A stretch of 64,000 bases of DNA, taken from contig JAZJZS010000013.1 of assembly GCA_040389685.1 (NCBI GenBank), positions 107-64,106 on the forward strand, read 5' to 3'. The notes beneath the pieces were generated by a model, which saw only the letters and a list, made by a program, of their open reading frames with translations, made no database searches and was not told the DNA's origin. This document shows positions 26,545 through 38,185 of this stretch, one piece after another; the stretch's first letter is position 1; every line of letters begins with the position of its first letter. A program made the translations under genes and the position numbers. This DNA is from Actinomycetota bacterium. Lineage in GTDB: Bacteria > Actinomycetota > Actinomycetes > Actinomycetales > Microbacteriaceae.

Positions 26545-27219
26545 CTACTTGGCGATCACCGTGATGGTGGCAACACCGACGAGCAGCTGCGACTTCACCG
26601 CATCCGTCTTGAAGGTCTTGTTCAGGAGGCCCGCAGCGTCAGCGGAGATGTGAACCGTGGTGCCGGTGAGGATGGCGTTGTTGCCGTCCGTCTGGAGCGG
26701 CTTGAGGGTTCCGCCGTAGAGGTTGAAGAGCACGACCTGGGTCGCGGCGGAGGTGCCGTTGACCGAGACGTCGCCGTAAAGGAGGGACTTGCCCGGGTCG
26801 ATGGTGAAGTTGGTCAGCTCGACCTTGGTGTCGCCGGCGGTGAGGGAGAAGCCGGATCCCTCGTGCTTGATCGTGCCCTGGACATACGGACGCATCTTCT
26901 TGGCCGGGTCGTAGTAGTCCACGTTTCCGCCGGTGATCGGGAAGTGCAGGCTGCCGTCGGTGAGTGTCGCGGTTCCGACGGTGCCCGGGGTGAGTCCGAG
27001 CGAGGTGAGGGCCGCGGCGAAGCCACCGTCGAGCAGAACGGCGGTGTCGACACCGGTGAGGCTCGGGATGGAGGCGAGGGGCTTCTGCACGGCGGGAGCC
27101 GAAGAGGACTTGGTGCCGGTCGACGATCCGGTGGTGGAGGTGCCCGAGCACGCGGCGAGGCCGGTGATGAGGAGTCCGGCGGTGATGATCCCGACTGTTG
27201 CCTTCTGGAATTTGCGCAT
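26545..27219 (-). CDS. Secreted lipoprotein with Ser/Thr-rich linker and beta-rich (possibly HtaA-like) domain
   Basis: Lipobox LAAC; SGTSTTGSSTGTKSSS; FPITGG..Y...GTIKHEGSG..L..G...VELTNFTID. Confidence 0.8.
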   Translation of the reverse strand: MRKFQKATVGIITAGLLITGLAACSGTSTTGSSTGTKSSSAPAVQKPLASIPSLTGVDTAVLLDGGFAAALTSLGLTPGTVGTATLTDGSLHFPITGGNVDYYDPAKKMRPYVQGTIKHEGSGFSLTAGDTKVELTNFTIDPGKSLLYGDVSVNGTSAATQVVLFNLYGGTLKPLQTDGNNAILTGTTVHISADAAGLLNKTFKTDAVKSQLLVGVATITVIAK

Positions 27220-27274
27220 GGTGTGATCCTTAGGTTTGCGCCTGCCCTTGGTGACAAGCGGTTCTGGATAGTGG

Positions 27275-27301
27275 TTCGGCTCCCCTCGCCAAAGGGTTTG
27301 G
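27275..27301 (-). promoter_or_regulatory. Candidate SigK-like ECF promoter of the lipoprotein gene
   Basis: Minus strand reads CCAAACC-N15-CCGAA, resembling the mycobacterial SigK consensus CCATCC-N15-CCGAA as recalled. Confidence 0.45.
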
Positions 27302-27355
27302 AATTGCTTCGTCCTGTTACCGTTCCGTTATCGTTGCCAGCGAACACCCAGCGAA

Positions 27356-36227: not shown

Positions 36228-36233
36228 CGTTCA

Positions 36234-37304
36234 TCACCGCACTGCCGCCCGCAGCGGTGCGCTCGCGAACTCGGCCATCCCCTCATCGAAACTCACCGTC
36301 GGACGCCAACCGAGCTCCGATTTCAGGCGCTCGGATGACGCGGTGATGTGCCGTACGTCGCCGAGACGATATTCGCCCGTGATCACGGGGTCGGGGCCGC
36401 CGGAGTGACGGCTGAGCGCTGAGGCGAGATCGCCGATGGTGTGCACGATCCCGCTTCCGACGTTGAAGGCTCGGAACGGTGCTCCGGTGCGCTCGGCCGT
36501 CTCTCCGGTGATCGCCTCGATCGCGGTGAGGTTGGCTGATGCCACATCCCGAACATGCACGAAGTCCCGGCGCTGCGCGCCGTCCTCGAACACGCGAGGA
36601 GCCTCGCCGCGTTCGAGGGCCGAACGGAAGAGCGACGCGACACCCGCATAGGGCGTGTTCTGGGGCATCCCCGGACCGTAGACGTTGTGGTACCGCAGCG
36701 CGATCGCTCGGCCGCCGGTGGAGCGGGCCCAGGCTGCGGCGAGATTTTCCTGGGCGAGCTTCGAGGCGGCGTAGACATTGCGCGGGTCGAGGGGAGCGGA
36801 CTCGGCGATCAGCTCGGGGAGCAGCGGTCCGCCGCTCTCATCCAGCGGATCGAAGTGCCCGGCGTCGAGGTCCTCCGCCCGGCGGGCGGCCGGTCGCGTC
36901 GATCGGCCGGAACTGTCGCGGTAGCTGCCCTCCCCGTAGACCACCATTGACGATGCGAGCACGAGCCGGTCAACGCCGGACTCCGCCATCGAGGCCAACA
37001 GCACGGCGGTGCCGAGGTCGTTGCTTCCGATGTAATCGGGGGCATCCTCGAACGACACGCCGAGGCCGACCTTCGCGGCCTGGTGGCAGACGACGTCAAC
37101 CCCGAAGAGGGCGACGGCCAGGGCATCCGGATCCCGCACGTCCGCCTTCACGAATTCGACACGGGGGTTCGGACGGTAATCGCCGCCGTGCACATCCGGG
37201 CGCAGCGAATCGAGTATCCGAACGCGCCAGCCCCTCTCGAGCGCAGCGTCGACGATAGCGGAGCCGATGAAGCCGGCGCCGCCGGTGATCAGGACGGTCG
37301 TCAT
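36234..37304 (-). CDS. NAD-dependent NDP-sugar epimerase/dehydratase (extended SDR)
   Basis: LITGGAGFIGS, HQAA, ASSMVVYG, YAASK, RYHNVYGP, RDFVHVRD. Confidence 0.93.
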   Translation of the reverse strand: MTTVLITGGAGFIGSAIVDAALERGWRVRILDSLRPDVHGGDYRPNPRVEFVKADVRDPDALAVALFGVDVVCHQAAKVGLGVSFEDAPDYIGSNDLGTAVLLASMAESGVDRLVLASSMVVYGEGSYRDSSGRSTRPAARRAEDLDAGHFDPLDESGGPLLPELIAESAPLDPRNVYAASKLAQENLAAAWARSTGGRAIALRYHNVYGPGMPQNTPYAGVASLFRSALERGEAPRVFEDGAQRRDFVHVRDVASANLTAIEAITGETAERTGAPFRAFNVGSGIVHTIGDLASALSRHSGGPDPVITGEYRLGDVRHITASSERLKSELGWRPTVSFDEGMAEFASAPLRAAVR

Positions 37305-38185
37305 ATCGCCTCCCTCGCCCCGTTCACCGGTTTCGCCAGCAGCGGTCTGGCCTGCACCGGCCTGGCCAGTACCGCCTCGACCTCGGCCGGGTCTATGCTC
37401 TGCCGAGGACTGTACCCCTCCGGCAACGCGCGGATGATCGCCTCGATCGCCGCGACGATGCGCGGCTGGGCTTCGGCGAGGCGACGCATCACGAGGGCGT
37501 GGCTCACGGCATCCGGGTCCGCTTCGCCGGGGCGGGGAGCCAGTCCCGCATCGCTGTCGGTCACGAACGAGAGGTTGACCGTGTCGATGTTGAGCTCGGC
37601 GGCGAGCGGCACCTCGGGGTACATCGTCATGTTGACGATGTGTGCACCCGCCGCGGCGAACCACAGCGACTCGGCGCGGGTGGAAAATCGTGGACCCTGG
37701 ATCACCACGACCGTGCCGGAGTTCTTGACTGGCTCCCCGGCCAGTGCCCGTGCGGCAATGTCGTGCAGCTCCGGCGGGAAGGGATCGGCCGCGGCGAGAT
37801 GCTGCACGGAACCCTGGTCGAAGAAGGTATCAGGGCGACCGTTAGTGCGGTCGATGAATTGGTCCGTGAGCACGAGGGTGCCCGGCGGGTAGTCGGCGGT
37901 CACGCCGCCCACCGCGGAGGAGGAGAGGATGACGCGCACCCCGAGGCTCGCGAGCGCCCAGATGTTCGCGCGGTAGTTGATGAGGTGCGGTGCCACGGAG
38001 TGATCGACGCCGTGCCGGGTGAGGAACGCCGTGCGTCGTCCGCCGAGTTCGCCGAGTGTGACCTCGGTAGGTCCGTACGGGGTGTCGATGCGGCGCTTCT
38101 CGCTCTGGGCCGGATCGAACAGGGAGTACAGGCCGGAGCCCCCGATGACGGCTACGGACGCTTCGGGGACGGAGGGGGAAGTCAT
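37301..38185 (-). CDS. mtnP: 5'-methylthioadenosine phosphorylase
   Basis: AVIGGSG, LTRHG..H, NYRANIWAL, DQFIDRT, QGPRFSTRAES, NMT..PE..LA.EL, VTDSD (MTAP DxD). Confidence 0.88.
   Translation of the reverse strand: MTSPSVPEASVAVIGGSGLYSLFDPAQSEKRRIDTPYGPTEVTLGELGGRRTAFLTRHGVDHSVAPHLINYRANIWALASLGVRVILSSSAVGGVTADYPPGTLVLTDQFIDRTNGRPDTFFDQGSVQHLAAADPFPPELHDIAARALAGEPVKNSGTVVVIQGPRFSTRAESLWFAAAGAHIVNMTMYPEVPLAAELNIDTVNLSFVTDSDAGLAPRPGEADPDAVSHALVMRRLAEAQPRIVAAIEAIIRALPEGYSPRQSIDPAEVEAVLARPVQARPLLAKPVNGAREAI

What the first reader, a model, noticed from the sequence alone, without database searches (positions are those of the whole stretch)
26545..38185. Complete methylthio-pentose (MTX-like) surface-glycosylation cassette in a non-mycobacterial actinobacterium
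Seen: one island encodes MTA phosphorylase (37301-38185) coupled to an NDP-sugar epimerase (36234-37304), a GT2 polyprenol-P synthase (31901-32569) coupled to DUF2064 (31275-31904), and a GT-C transferase (27356-28771). Established (recalled): M. tuberculosis makes the 5-methylthio-xylofuranose cap of lipoarabinomannan with this five-function set (Rv0535 MTAP, Rv0540, Rv0536 epimerase, Rv0539 MtxS, Rv0541c MtxT). Inference: this organism converts MTA to MTR-1-P, then an NDP-sugar, then polyprenyl-P-MTX, and decorates an unknown surface glycan. A mycobacterial-type LAM acceptor is not expected in this family, so the acceptor may be new.
Basis: partly seen in the sequence, partly recalled or inferred. 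Interest (0 to 1): 0.9.

Follow-up and report, generated by a model that had tools for sequence, protein, structure and literature searches.

The report
Methylthio-sugar cell-surface decoration gene cluster
A Microbacteriaceae bacterium carries a variant of the gene set that tuberculosis bacteria use to put a sulfur-containing sugar (methylthioxylose) on their surface, with a different final transferase and a conserved methionine-sulfoxide-reductase-like enzyme beside it; versions of this cluster are found across the Actinobacteria.

Summary
Four of the five (MTAP, SDR epimerase, GT2, DUF2064) are clear counterparts of the mycobacterial Rv0535/0536/0539/0540 set: 35-54% identity to M. gastri, one hit each in the window, same gene coupling. 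The fifth is not. The window GT-C is a GT87-family enzyme with no detectable similarity to the MtxT (Rv0541c) type.

It is not an island. The locus lies between ispE and an ABC-F gene at normal GC content and is syntenic across Microbacteriaceae.
- a SAM methyltransferase;
- a five-helix heme-b/molybdenum protein (Sco3746-like architecture, a fused MsrQ-MsrP analogue) followed by a small 4-TM protein;
- an OmpR-type two-component system;
- a GT-C, usually MtxT-type.

In the window's lineage GT87 occupies the MtxT slot. It is also embedded in such clusters in Streptosporangiales, Frankiales and one Streptomyces.

Best reading: a methylthio-pentose donor pathway with a swapped transferase. More speculatively, it includes an outward-facing methyl-sulfoxide redox enzyme. 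The sugar and its acceptor are untested. This is a new variant of a known kind.

The parts
37301..38185 (-). 5'-methylthioadenosine phosphorylase (MTAP, Rv0535-like). Proposed step: MTA + Pi -> adenine + 5-methylthioribose-1-phosphate.
   Evidence: Pfam PNP_UDP_1, 127 bits. Best solved relatives are archaeal, metagenomic and human MTAPs, E 1.8e-53 to 9e-40. 50% identity to the M. gastri Rv0535 ortholog, and the only hit in the window. Present next to the epimerase in 52/80 Microbacteriaceae loci.
36234..37304 (-). NAD-dependent SDR sugar-nucleotide epimerase (Rv0536-like). Proposed to epimerise the nucleotide-linked methylthio-ribose to the xylo form.
   Evidence: Pfam Epimerase, 169 bits. GalE-like by NCBIfam but below cutoff. 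Solved relatives are NDP-sugar epimerases. 54% identity over 353 aa to the M. gastri ortholog. The ATG overlaps the MTAP stop by 4 nt. Found in 74/80, 71/80 and 53/80 loci.
34638..36227 (+). Second membrane-anchored molybdenum oxidoreductase of the SUOX family ('Mo2'). It has about 5-6 N-terminal TM helices, an internal RRRF twin-arginine motif, a Mo domain and an Ig-like domain. It is the last gene of the RR-HK-Mo2 operon.
   Evidence: Pfam Oxidored_molyb 143 bits plus Big_7. SorA/SoxC-like, far below the NCBIfam cutoffs. TM segments and start/stop overlap with HK. At this position only in the window's close relatives; elsewhere within 10 kb in other Microbacteriaceae, 34/80.
33469..34641 (+). 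Sensor histidine kinase. About 4 N-terminal TM helices with very short loops (intramembrane-sensing type), then HisKA and HATPase_c domains.
   Evidence: Pfam, NCBIfam, TM scan and 4-nt overlaps with RR and Mo2. Orthologs (41-55% identity) lie next to GT2 in mycobacteria, Nocardioides, Streptomyces and others: 50/80 MtxT-anchored loci.
32693..33472 (+). OmpR/MtrA-like response regulator, divergent from the GT2 operon. The start is uncertain (candidates 32594 and 32693).
   Evidence: Pfam Response_reg plus Trans_reg_C. MtrA model 240 bits, below the 300 cutoff. Start candidates. 50-69% identical orthologs lie beside GT2 across orders.
31901..32569 (-). Soluble GT2 polyprenyl-phosphate sugar synthase (MtxS/Rv0539-like). 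Proposed step: NDP-methylthio-pentose + polyprenyl-P -> polyprenyl-P-methylthio-pentose.
   Evidence: Pfam Glycos_transf_2, 73 bits. Relatives are ArnC, DPM synthase, AglJ and PpgS. 54% identity to the M. gastri Rv0539 ortholog, the only hit in the window. No TM helix.
31275..31904 (-). DUF2064 protein (Rv0540-like) with a GT-A/nucleotidyltransferase-like fold. Proposed to activate methylthioribose-1-P to the nucleotide sugar.
   Evidence: Pfam DUF2064, 57 bits. TIGR04282 114 bits, below the 134 cutoff, and weak CofC similarity. PDB 3cgx 'putative nucleotide-diphospho-sugar transferase', E 2e-9. 35% identity to the M. gastri ortholog. 4-nt overlaps with GT2 and the MTase.
30601..31278 (-). Class I SAM-dependent methyltransferase, third gene of the GT2-DUF2064-MT operon. 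Substrate unknown.
   Evidence: Pfam Methyltransf_25/23/11. Only generic solved relatives. Present in 62/80, 70/80 and 58/80 loci, always beside DUF2064 or the heme-Mo gene. Not found by tblastn in the slow-grower (M. tuberculosis-type) mycobacterial loci fetched.
30206..30655 (+). Small 4-TM membrane protein directly downstream of the heme-Mo gene. It overlaps the 3' end of the MTase gene by 55 nt. Role unknown: candidate lipid-linked-sugar flippase or a subunit of the heme-Mo protein.
   Evidence: ORF with GC3 of about 0.94. No Pfam family. 4 TM helices. Conserved at the same position in 71/80 Microbacteriaceae loci and, weakly, in 26/80 Nocardioides/Nocardia/Gordonia-type loci.
28887..30191 (+). 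Five-TM di-heme-b / molybdenum-cofactor fusion protein with Sco3746-like architecture, a fused analogue of MsrQ+MsrP. The Mo domain is predicted to face outward. Proposed to act on the methylthio/methylsulfinyl group of the sugar.
   Evidence: Pfam Oxidored_molyb 78 bits plus cytochrome b561. Weak MsrP/SoxC hits. Alignment shows conserved His in the TM helices, an SRRG twin-arginine motif before TM5, a PIACVEGWS Cys motif and DHG.P.R..P..PGV..TKW. TM positions match the published Sco3746 topology (PMC5449189). Present in 72/80 and 70/80 loci. In the reverse test, 54-58 of 80 heme-Mo-anchored loci carry GT2, DUF2064 or MT.
27356..28771 (-). GT87-family GT-C glycosyltransferase occupying the slot that MtxT (Rv0541c-type) holds in related clusters. 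Proposed extracytoplasmic transferase of the lipid-linked sugar to an unknown acceptor.
   Evidence: Pfam GT87, 31 bits against a cutoff of 25. AF2 model pLDDT 89.5. Foldseek top matches are ALG3, ArnT, PimE and ALG6. Invariant D93 and D100 lie in the stretch after the third predicted helix of the AF2 model. Same position and orientation as MtxT in Agromyces and Microbacterium. 59/80 Microbacteriaceae loci have it, 4 have MtxT, none both. Also embedded in clusters of other orders.
26545..27219 (-). Lipoprotein of unknown family: lipobox LAAC, a Ser/Thr-rich linker and a beta-sandwich domain. It travels with the GT87 gene. Possibly heme-binding.
   Evidence: No Pfam or NCBIfam hit. 3979 homologs, all unnamed. 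AF2 pLDDT 72. Foldseek best matches are HtaA/HtaB/ChtA heme-binding CR domains, E 5e-5, TMt 0.67. 40/80 Microbacteriaceae loci have it, and 49-51% identical copies lie next to GT87 in Frankiales-type clusters L264, L270 and L292.

Best explanation
This is the Microbacteriaceae version of an ancient, actinobacteria-wide gene cluster. The five-gene methylthioxylose (MTX) cluster of M. tuberculosis looks like a reduced relative of it.

Inferred from orthology with the characterised mycobacterial genes:
1. MTAP splits methylthioadenosine to 5-methylthioribose-1-phosphate.
2. The DUF2064 protein makes a nucleotide sugar from it.
3. The SDR epimerase converts that to the xylo form.
4. The soluble GT2 (MtxS-like) loads it onto polyprenyl phosphate.

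Inferred from position: after flipping, the lipid-linked sugar is transferred outside the membrane by the GT87-type GT-C. In this lineage GT87 has replaced the MtxT-type GT-C in the same slot, so it probably serves a different acceptor or makes a different linkage.

More speculative:
- The conserved five-helix heme-b/molybdenum protein resembles a fused MsrQ-MsrP and has an outward-facing Mo domain. It may use membrane quinol electrons to reduce the methylsulfinyl form of the sugar back to the thioether, or carry out the reverse oxidation.
- The adjacent OmpR-type two-component system may control the divergent GT2 operon.

The roles of the methyltransferase, the small 4-TM protein, the second Mo enzyme and the lipoprotein are not resolved.
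For: Orthology of the donor genes:
- 50, 54, 54 and 35% identity to the M. gastri Rv0535/0536/0539/0540 counterparts, with single hits in both directions and identical 4-nt gene overlaps.
- MtxS = Rv0539 and MtxT = Rv0541c are experimentally assigned (PMC8780516; PMC12088412).

Family assignments.

Conservation:
- The core order epimerase-GT2-DUF2064-MT-(heme-Mo)-GT-C recurs in 80 Microbacteriaceae loci.
- Around 80 MtxT-type genes from Nocardioides, Streptomyces, Nocardia, Gordonia, Amycolatopsis and others: GT2 74, DUF2064 71, epimerase 71, MT 70, heme-Mo 70, RR/HK 50.
- Reverse anchor on the heme-Mo protein: 54-58 of 80 loci carry GT2, DUF2064 or MT.

Transferase swap:
- GT87 lies in exactly the MtxT slot.
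- In Microbacteriaceae the counts are 59 GT87, 4 MtxT and 0 both.
- None of the 80 MtxT-anchored loci has GT87.
- GT2 and epimerase identity does not depend on the GT-C type, and their tree follows taxonomy.
- GT87 is embedded in such clusters in Nonomuraea, Streptosporangium, Frankiales MAGs and one Streptomyces.
- Named close MtxT homologs come from Agromyces, Microbacterium and Humibacter, never from GT87-type genera.
- The model has a GT-C fold.

Heme-Mo protein:
- Architecture and motifs.
- Published topology and the MsrPQ analogy (PMC5449189).
Against: No chemistry was tested. No sulfur sugar has been reported outside M. tuberculosis, M. avium and M. kansasii (PMC12088412).

All characterised GT87 enzymes I know of are polyprenyl-P-mannose mannosyltransferases (my knowledge). 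GT87 here could therefore build a mannan rather than transfer the thio-sugar. One Geodermatophilus locus (L257) has both GT-C types.

A genome-wide absence of MtxT in GT87-type genomes could not be checked.

The heme-Mo protein scores far below the MsrP model cutoff (30 against 207 bits). Its C-terminal part matches sulfite oxidases at least as well as it matches YedY.

22-26 of the 80 heme-Mo-anchored loci lack the glycosylation genes within 10 kb. In some slow-growing mycobacteria the MT/heme-Mo pair sits apart from them.

M. tuberculosis itself was not among the loci returned, so M. gastri, M. persicum and M. simulans served as proxies.

The methyltransferase has no place in the known MTX pathway, so the product may be a modified sugar.
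Confidence: 0.6

Rival explanations
1. The donor pathway is as proposed, but the GT87 protein is an ordinary polyprenyl-P-mannose mannosyltransferase that builds or extends the mannan or O-mannose acceptor. The methylthio-sugar is then transferred by another GT-C encoded elsewhere, or not transferred at all in this lineage.
For: Pfam places the protein in GT87, and JGI names its homologs alpha-1,2-mannosyltransferase. The closest solved folds include the mannosyltransferases ALG3 and PimE. In M. tuberculosis MTX is attached to mannose caps, so a mannosyltransferase in the cluster would make sense. Geodermatophilus L257 has both GT87 and MtxT-type genes.
Against: GT87 and MtxT types occupy the same slot and are mutually exclusive in 63 Microbacteriaceae loci and in 80 MtxT-anchored loci. 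Without GT87 the window's cluster would make a lipid-linked donor with no transferase in the locus. Close MtxT homologs were not seen in GT87-type genera. The protein is too distant from PimE to be found by sequence.
Confidence: 0.25
2. The cluster makes a different 5-modified pentose, not methylthioxylose. Candidates are a 5-deoxy-pentose derived from 5'-deoxyadenosine or a methylated derivative made by the clustered methyltransferase. The sulfur link to the Mo enzyme would then be spurious.
For: In some bacteria MTAP-family enzymes also cleave 5'-deoxyadenosine (my knowledge). The DUF2064/GT2 pair is related to the TIGR04282/TIGR04283 pair that NCBI names for arsenosugar synthesis, another 5'-substituted adenosine-derived sugar. 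The methyltransferase is conserved in most clusters but was not found in the slow-grower mycobacterial loci, the group that includes the species known to make plain MTX. MTAP is absent from most clusters outside Microbacteriaceae, Nocardioides and mycobacteria.
Against: GT2 and the epimerase are 52-55% identical to the mycobacterial MTX enzymes, with the same operon coupling. MTAP is translationally coupled to the epimerase here. The recurrent partner enzyme belongs to a family whose known substrates are sulfur oxyanions and methyl sulfoxides.
Confidence: 0.12
3. The two Mo oxidoreductases and the two-component system are an independent envelope redox/stress module, for example sulfite detoxification or protein methionine-sulfoxide repair. 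They happen to neighbour the glycosylation genes and have no role in the sugar's chemistry.
For: The MsrP/MsrQ analogy points first to protein repair. The best PDB matches of the Mo domain are sulfite oxidases. 22-26 of the 80 heme-Mo-anchored loci have no glycosylation genes within 10 kb, and slow-growing mycobacteria keep the gene elsewhere. M. tuberculosis-type clusters work without it.
Against: The heme-Mo gene lies between MT and the GT-C in about 90% of loci from at least eight orders, whichever gene is used as anchor. Such persistent linkage through many rearrangements of gene order is hard to explain without a shared function.
Confidence: 0.2
4. The region is a horizontally acquired surface-glycosylation island specific to this organism.
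For: None beyond the clustered appearance of the genes.
Against: GC content equals that of the flanks. The same locus at the same chromosomal site, with 80-92% identical proteins, is present in Lacisediminihabitans, Glaciihabitans and Frigoribacterium, and the locus is syntenic across the family. The GT2+epimerase tree follows taxonomy.
Confidence: 0.02

Closest known systems
M. tuberculosis methylthioxylose (MTX) capping pathway: Rv0535 MTAP, Rv0536 epimerase, Rv0539 MtxS, Rv0540 DUF2064, Rv0541c MtxT (Angala et al. 2017, cited in PMC11127046; paper not held)
   Same: MTAP-epimerase and GT2-DUF2064 pairs have the same translational coupling and 35-54% identity to the slow-grower mycobacterial orthologs. 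The logic is the same: a polyprenyl-P-linked donor made by a small soluble GT2, then transfer by a GT-C enzyme.
   Different: The GT-C is GT87, not MtxT-type. Rv0537c/Rv0538-like genes are absent. Extra conserved genes are present: MTase, heme-Mo protein, small 4-TM protein, two-component system, second Mo enzyme and lipoprotein. The host is not known to me to make lipoarabinomannan (my knowledge, not checked here), so the acceptor is unknown.
MtxT-type extended clusters of other Actinobacteria (Agromyces, Microbacterium, Nocardioides, Streptomyces, Nocardia, Gordonia, fast-growing mycobacteria), seen here in loci L054-L078 and L161-L240. One JGI record names such a protein 'methylthioxylose transferase'.
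   Same: Same gene set and often the same order: MTAP, epimerase, HK, RR, GT2, DUF2064, MT, heme-Mo.
   Different: Those carry the MtxT-type GT-C. The window's lineage carries GT87 plus a lipoprotein in that slot, and adds a second Mo enzyme to the two-component operon.
E. coli MsrP/MsrQ (YedY/YedZ) periplasmic methionine sulfoxide reductase, and the S. coelicolor Sco3746 fusion protein (PMC5449189)
   Same: A heme-b membrane module plus an outward-facing SUOX-fold Mo domain without a dimerisation domain. Five TM helices with a twin-arginine motif before TM5, as shown experimentally for Sco3746. The proposed substrate group, CH3-S(O)-CH2-, is the one MsrP reduces in methionine sulfoxide.
   Different: It scores far below the MsrP family cutoff. 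It is a single polypeptide. No function is known for the Sco3746 family, and no paper in the library links it to sugars. It was not compared directly with the Sco3746 sequence.
Three-component systems for extracytoplasmic pentofuranose addition (polyprenyl-P-sugar synthase, epimerase, GT-C; PMC11127046) and GtrA/GtrB/Gtr-type systems
   Same: A lipid-phosphate-linked pentose donor is made in the cytoplasm and used outside by a GT-C. A small 4-TM protein is present that could play the GtrA-like flippase role.
   Different: The donor originates from methylthioadenosine via a nucleotide sugar, not from PRPP. The small membrane protein has no GtrA signature.
Mycobacterial GT87 mannosyltransferases (PimE, Rv2181-type)
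   Same: Pfam GT87 membership and the GT-C fold. PimE is among the best structural matches.
   Different: No sequence-level match to PimE in the PDB at E<=1. The genomic context is a methylthio-sugar cluster rather than PIM/LM synthesis.
TIGR04282/TIGR04283 'arsenosugar biosynthesis' DUF2064-like + GT2 pair (NCBIfam names)
   Same: A DUF2064-type protein paired with a small GT2, associated with a sugar derived from a 5'-substituted 5'-deoxyadenosine (the pathway logic is from my knowledge).
   Different: Both window proteins score below those families' cutoffs (114 against 134 bits; 34 against 182 bits). No radical-SAM arsenic enzyme is nearby.

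Membership tests
Mycobacterial MTX biosynthetic gene set (Rv0535/0536/0539/0540/0541c) | MTA phosphorylase gene immediately followed by, and coupled to, an SDR epimerase gene | tested here: met
   4-nt overlap at 37301-37304. 50% and 54% identity to the M. gastri pair, which has the same overlap.
Mycobacterial MTX biosynthetic gene set (Rv0535/0536/0539/0540/0541c) | MtxS-type small soluble GT2 (Rv0539 ortholog) | tested here: met
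   54% identity over 214 aa to the M. gastri ortholog, a single hit in both directions. 222 aa with no TM helix. The comparison used close relatives of M. tuberculosis, not H37Rv itself.
Mycobacterial MTX biosynthetic gene set (Rv0535/0536/0539/0540/0541c) | DUF2064 gene coupled downstream of the GT2 | tested here: met
   Pfam DUF2064. 35% identity to the M. gastri ortholog. 4-nt overlap.
Mycobacterial MTX biosynthetic gene set (Rv0535/0536/0539/0540/0541c) | MtxT (Rv0541c-type) GT-C transferase | tested here: not met
   No tblastn hit in the 64-kb window. The window GT-C against the M. gastri Rv0541c ortholog gives BLASTP E 0.74. The conserved MtxT-family stretches (H.SGHPPGA, AVSAD, SKAE.ERIW.PF) define a family with no detectable match in the window.
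Mycobacterial MTX biosynthetic gene set (Rv0535/0536/0539/0540/0541c) | Product: 5-deoxy-5-methylthio-xylofuranose on an envelope glycan | not testable with these tools
   Needs chemistry on a cultured relative.
5'-methylthioadenosine phosphorylase (trimeric PNP_UDP_1 class) | Sequence membership among characterised MTAPs | tested here: met
   Best PDB matches are all MTAPs, E 1.8e-53 to 1e-33, and the alignment with the best matches covers about residues 7-259 of 294.
5'-methylthioadenosine phosphorylase (trimeric PNP_UDP_1 class) | Preference for MTA as substrate | not testable with these tools
   Needs an enzyme assay.
GT87 / GT-C glycosyltransferases | Pfam GT87 domain above the gathering score, and a GT-C fold with acidic residues in the first outer loop | tested here: met
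   31 bits against a cutoff of 25; homologs score 44-48 bits. AF2 pLDDT 89.5, with best folds ALG3, ArnT, PimE and ALG6. Invariant D93 and D100 lie in the stretch after the third predicted helix of the model.
GT87 / GT-C glycosyltransferases | Polyprenyl-P-mannose-dependent alpha-mannosyltransferase activity | not testable with these tools
   The donor sugar cannot be read from the sequence. The context argues for a different donor.
Sco3746-type dual Sec/Tat heme-b/MoCo membrane proteins | Five TM helices, conserved heme-ligand His in the TM helices, a twin-arginine motif directly before TM5, and a C-terminal MoCo domain | tested here: met
   against the description in PMC5449189. The Streptomyces cluster member has TM and RR positions within about 8 residues of those published for Sco3746. 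No direct alignment to Sco3746 was made.
MsrP (protein-methionine-sulfoxide reductase catalytic subunit) | Score above the NCBIfam equivalog cutoff | tested here: not met
   30.3 bits against a cutoff of 207 for the heme-Mo protein, and 57.7 bits for Mo2. The resemblance is in architecture only.
TIGR04282 (DUF2064-like 'arsenosugar biosynthesis' protein) | Score above the family cutoff | tested here: not met
   113.7 bits against a cutoff of 134. It is a related subfamily, not a member.
GtrA-like lipid-linked sugar flippases | Small 4-TM protein with the GtrA Pfam signature | tested here: inconclusive
   Four TM helices and about 149 aa, but no GtrA or other Pfam hit.

The most novel reading that the evidence does not exclude
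Across the Actinobacteria, a methylthio-pentose is installed on envelope glycans by interchangeable GT-C transferases (MtxT-type or GT87-type, chosen according to the acceptor). It is kept in, or cycled through, its reduced thioether state by a dedicated quinol-driven heme-b/molybdenum enzyme encoded in the same cluster, under a dedicated two-component system. The sugar would then be a regenerable extracellular antioxidant: a glycan counterpart of the methionine / MsrPQ system. The M. tuberculosis MTX cap would be a stripped-down remnant of it.
Probability: 0.3. Interest if true: 0.85.

Novelty: new variant of a known kind. Interest (0 to 1): 0.6.

Why it matters
Methylthioxylose is described as the only known bacterial thiosugar. 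It is reported only from M. tuberculosis, M. avium and M. kansasii (PMC12088412), where it is a diagnostic epitope of lipoarabinomannan. [quoted passage not shown]

The comparison here gives three results.
- The biosynthetic core is part of a larger cluster of about nine genes, conserved from Solirubrobacterales to Streptomyces and Microbacteriaceae.
- The terminal transferase has been swapped for a GT87 enzyme in several lineages.
- A Sco3746-type heme-Mo protein of unknown function is a near-constant partner.

That gives concrete, cheap experiments in harmless soil and glacier bacteria:
- look for the sugar and its acceptor;
- test a function for the Sco3746 family;
- ask what the sugar is for, a question still open for M. 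tuberculosis.

It also bears on the specificity of MTX-directed antibodies and chemical probes if environmental actinobacteria display the same epitope.

Tried and rejected
- **Primary papers not available.** Angala et al. 2017 and Palcekova et al. 2024 are not in the library. What they say about distribution rests on my memory. I recall the 2017 abstract noting conservation of the machinery in a number of Actinobacteria. This is unverified.
- **M. tuberculosis locus not returned.** I probed the genome collection with an Rv0535-like sequence recalled from memory. It pulled 80 real mycobacterial loci, the best at 87% identity (M. simulans), but not M. tuberculosis itself. Only the fetched DNA was used afterwards.
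- **GT87 against solved structures.** A sequence search found nothing at E<=1, so structure prediction was needed.
- **No family assignment.** Pfam and NCBIfam gave nothing for the lipoprotein or the small 4-TM protein.
- **MsrP membership.** Tested and not met. A profile search of the PDB did not separate MsrP-like from sulfite-oxidase-like.
- **No RNA or signal motifs.** There is no Rfam family (no Moco or SAM riboswitch) and no consensus promoter or terminator in 24-41 kb.
- **Literature.** Searches for DUF2064 (0 papers) and for SCO3742-3747 found no functional study.
- **'Island' reading.** Considered and rejected.
- **Lipoprotein as glycan acceptor.** Considered because of its Ser/Thr linker. 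Not pursued beyond the fold match to heme-binding HtaA domains.
- **Not possible.** A genome-wide check for MtxT in GT87-type genomes, and a true reciprocal best-hit test against complete genomes.

Full report
**What is in the window**

The DNA is 63-70% GC, so open reading frames alone are not informative. I chose genes by third-position GC content and checked them against family libraries. The cluster spans 26.5-38.2 kb and holds twelve genes:

| Coordinates | Strand | Gene |
|---|---|---|
| 26545-27219 | - | lipoprotein |
| 27356-28771 | - | GT87 GT-C glycosyltransferase |
| 28887-30191 | + | fusion of a cytochrome-b-type membrane domain with a molybdenum domain ("heme-Mo") |
| 30206-30655 | + | small 4-TM protein |
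| 30601-31278 | - | SAM methyltransferase (MT) |
| 31275-31904 | - | DUF2064 |
| 31901-32569 | - | GT2 |
| about 32693-33472 | + | OmpR-type response regulator (RR) |
| 33469-34641 | + | histidine kinase (HK) |
| 34638-36227 | + | second membrane-anchored Mo oxidoreductase (Mo2) |
| 36234-37304 | - | SDR epimerase |
| 37301-38185 | - | MTA phosphorylase (MTAP) |

Four-nucleotide start/stop overlaps tie together GT2-DUF2064-MT, RR-HK-Mo2 and MTAP-epimerase.

The flanks are housekeeping genes:
- on one side a protein O-mannosyltransferase, metG, tatD, ksgA and ispE;
- on the other an ABC-F gene, a MarR-family gene, glmU, prsA, the ribosomal protein L25 gene, pth and mfd.

GC content does not differ from the flanks.

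**Whose genome**

The closest named relatives of the GT-C, the GT2 and the lipoprotein belong to Microbacteriaceae: Lacisediminihabitans, Glaciihabitans, Frigoribacterium and Cryobacterium. Loci L081, L083 and L084 have the same twelve genes in the same order at 80-92% protein identity, between the same flanking genes.

**Comparison with the mycobacterial MTX genes**

The primary paper is not in the library. Other papers confirm that Rv0539 is MtxS, which makes the lipid-linked donor, and that Rv0541c is MtxT, which transfers MTX to lipoarabinomannan.

M. tuberculosis itself was not returned by the genome collection. I used as a probe an Rv0535-like sequence recalled from memory. It fetched 80 real Mycobacterium and Mycolicibacterium loci, including M. 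gastri and M. persicum of the M. kansasii complex. Only the fetched DNA was used from then on.

The slow growers show the arrangement that I recall (from memory) for Rv0535-Rv0542c in M. tuberculosis:
- MTAP and epimerase;
- two membrane-protein genes;
- GT2 and DUF2064;
- a 450-aa membrane protein next to menE, which I take as the Rv0541c ortholog.

Identity of the window proteins to M. gastri is 50% (MTAP), 54% (epimerase), 54% (GT2) and 35% (DUF2064). Each M. gastri protein finds exactly one gene in the window, and M. gastri has the same 4-nt overlaps.

The Rv0541c ortholog finds nothing in the window. It has no Pfam family and does not align with the window GT-C (BLASTP E 0.74). Four of the five functions are therefore homologous. 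The fifth is only analogous.

**The cluster is larger and much older than the M. tuberculosis version**

Fast-growing mycobacteria carry HK, RR, GT2, DUF2064, MT, the heme-Mo gene and an MtxT-type gene together.

I anchored a search on an alignment of MtxT-type proteins. It returned 80 loci from Agromyces, Microbacterium, Nocardioides, Streptomyces, Williamsia, Gordonia, Nocardia, Amycolatopsis, Phycicoccus and Solirubrobacterales. Gene counts within 10 kb:

| Gene | Loci out of 80 |
|---|---|
| GT2 | 74 |
| DUF2064 | 71 |
| epimerase | 71 |
| MT | 70 |
| heme-Mo | 70 |
| RR and HK | 50 |
| MTAP | 47 |

The reverse test was anchored on the heme-Mo protein, with a Solirubrobacterales sequence first. 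It sampled Streptosporangiales, Geodermatophilales, Frankiales, Micromonospora, Acidimicrobiales, Pseudonocardia, Kitasatospora and others. It found MT in 58, DUF2064 in 55, GT2 in 54 and the epimerase in 53 of 80 loci.

The small 4-TM gene follows the heme-Mo gene in 71 of 80 Microbacteriaceae loci. At weaker similarity it holds the same position in Nocardioides, Nocardia and Gordonia.

The slow-grower mycobacterial cluster lacks MT, the heme-Mo gene and the two-component system at the locus. In some slow growers an MT/heme-Mo pair lies elsewhere.

**The transferase swap**

In Agromyces and Microbacterium, which belong to the same family as the window organism, the order is MTAP, epimerase, HK, RR, GT2, DUF2064, MT, heme-Mo (reverse strand), MtxT. 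In the window's lineage the order is the same, but GT87 followed by the lipoprotein sits where MtxT would be.

- Of 80 GT2-anchored Microbacteriaceae loci, 59 have GT87, 4 have MtxT and none has both. The rest are mostly truncated contigs.
- None of the 80 MtxT-anchored loci has GT87.
- GT2 and epimerase identities to the window are the same in both kinds of locus (about 70-75%). A neighbour-joining tree of GT2 plus epimerase follows taxonomy, with the GT87 block inside Microbacteriaceae. The donor-making enzymes therefore did not change when the transferase did.
- GT87 homologs (32-41% identical) are embedded in clusters of Nonomuraea, Streptosporangium, Frankiales MAGs and one Streptomyces. 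In three of these the lipoprotein homolog (49-51% identical) lies beside GT87.
- One Geodermatophilus locus has both GT-C types.
- The top 120 homologs of a Microbacteriaceae MtxT-type protein (64% identity or more) include named proteins from Agromyces, Microbacterium, Rhodoglobus, Pseudolysinimonas, Homoserinibacter and Humibacter. None comes from the heavily sequenced GT87-type genera.
- The GT87 model is confident (pLDDT 89.5). It matches ALG3, ArnT, PimE and ALG6, which are lipid-phosphate-sugar-dependent GT-C enzymes.

I conclude that GT87 most likely takes over the MtxT step, probably with another acceptor or linkage. The evidence is positional, not biochemical.

**The heme-Mo protein**

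Its features:
- five predicted TM helices;
- conserved histidines in the helices;
- an SRRG twin-arginine motif just before the fifth helix;
- a C-terminal Mo domain with an invariant PIACVEGWS cysteine motif and DHG.P.R..P..PGV..TKW.

This is the architecture shown experimentally for S. coelicolor Sco3746. That protein is inserted by Sec and Tat together, its MoCo domain faces outward, and it was described as a fused counterpart of MsrQ/MsrP with no known function (PMC5449189). The Streptomyces member of the cluster has TM and twin-arginine positions within a few residues of those published for Sco3746. I did not align the two directly.

The protein is not an MsrP family member by score. A PDB profile search does not separate it from sulfite oxidases.

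MsrP reduces the CH3-S(O)-CH2- group of methionine sulfoxide. The methylthio-pentose carries the same group, and both thioether and sulfoxide forms of the sugar occur in mycobacterial lipoarabinomannan (my knowledge). I therefore propose that this enzyme acts on the sugar's sulfur outside the membrane. This is an inference from linkage and family chemistry, and I give it roughly one chance in three.

**Other parts**

- The methyltransferase is translationally coupled to DUF2064 and conserved, but only generic relatives are known. Slow-grower mycobacteria, the group known to make MTX, lack this gene at the locus. It may therefore modify the product or do something else.
- The DUF2064 protein resembles a nucleotide-diphospho-sugar transferase fold. 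It falls just below the cutoff of a family that NCBI names for arsenosugar synthesis, which fits a role with 5'-substituted adenosine-derived sugars.
- The response regulator is 50-69% identical across orders, so it is a dedicated system rather than a generic neighbour.
- The histidine kinase has about four TM helices with minimal loops.
- Mo2 has its own polytopic anchor and an internal twin-arginine motif. It is specific to Microbacteriaceae.
- The lipoprotein model (pLDDT 72) resembles the heme-binding CR domains of corynebacterial HtaA/HtaB. This is a lead only.

**Literature and novelty**

In the held library every paper on the sugar concerns mycobacterial lipoarabinomannan.
- A 2025 paper calls MTX the only known bacterial thiosugar, restricted to M. 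tuberculosis, M. avium and M. kansasii.
- A 2024 paper says it is unclear whether the modification exists outside lipoarabinomannan.
- I recall that the 2017 abstract noted conservation of the machinery in other Actinobacteria, and one JGI record names an MtxT homolog. The mere presence of the genes outside mycobacteria is therefore not new.
- I found nothing on the extended cluster, the GT87 substitution, or a link between Sco3746-type proteins and this pathway.

I rate it a new variant of a known kind, with interest 0.6.

Noticed in passing
window 30206-30655 (+): A small conserved 4-TM gene lies directly after the heme-Mo gene. It converges on the methyltransferase gene and overlaps it by 55 nt. 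It has no family assignment and could be the missing flippase or a subunit of the heme-Mo protein.
   Followed up: partly
window 26545-27219 (-): The lipoprotein family (3979 homologs, all unnamed) has a predicted fold like the heme-binding CR domains of Corynebacterium HtaA/HtaB/ChtA. Its invariant residues include H92, Y102, H119 and H190. It has a Ser/Thr-rich linker after the lipobox, as I recall for O-glycosylated actinobacterial lipoproteins (my knowledge, not checked).
   Followed up: partly
window 14798-17251 (-): A protein O-mannosyltransferase (PMT/GT39, another GT-C) lies about 10 kb from the cluster, in the conserved pmt-metG-tatD-ksgA-ispE backbone. O-mannosylated proteins are a conceivable mannose-bearing acceptor for the sugar.
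   Followed up: no
window 34638-36227 (+): The second Mo enzyme also has a polytopic N-terminal anchor and an internal RRRF twin-arginine motif before its last TM helix. It may therefore be another dual Sec/Tat-inserted protein, but it has no recognisable heme-b domain.
   Followed up: partly
L296, L303, L305 (slow-growing Mycobacterium spp.), about 9-11 kb in each locus: In some slow-growing mycobacteria the methyltransferase/heme-Mo pair is kept together but away from GT2/DUF2064. In L300, L317 and L319 only the heme-Mo gene was found within 10 kb. Whether M. tuberculosis keeps such a gene was not checked (Rv0218 is my guess from memory).
   Followed up: no
L257 (Geodermatophilus chilensis), 3666-4538 and 11566-12762: One cluster carries both an MtxT-type and a GT87-type GT-C. 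This could mean two acceptors, or that the two enzymes are not strictly equivalent.
   Followed up: no
L137 (MAG labelled Mycobacterium sp. BIOS2019_out_035): This locus is Microbacteriaceae-like: its GT2 is 74% identical to the window's, against about 52% for true mycobacteria. The contig is probably mis-binned or the label is wrong.
   Followed up: no
window 9806-14780: A sugar ABC transporter (solute-binding protein and two permeases) with a LacI-type regulator lies in a stretch of lower GC content (0.60-0.63) and strong AT skew compared with the rest of the window.
   Followed up: no
window 56000-64000: The last 8 kb have lower GC content (0.60-0.65) and few confident genes apart from a DUF4192 protein (58504-59625).
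   Followed up: no
window 40695-42146 (-): The long ORF has a MarR domain only in its last 115 or so residues and overlaps glmU on the other strand. The real MarR gene is much shorter than the ORF.
   Followed up: no
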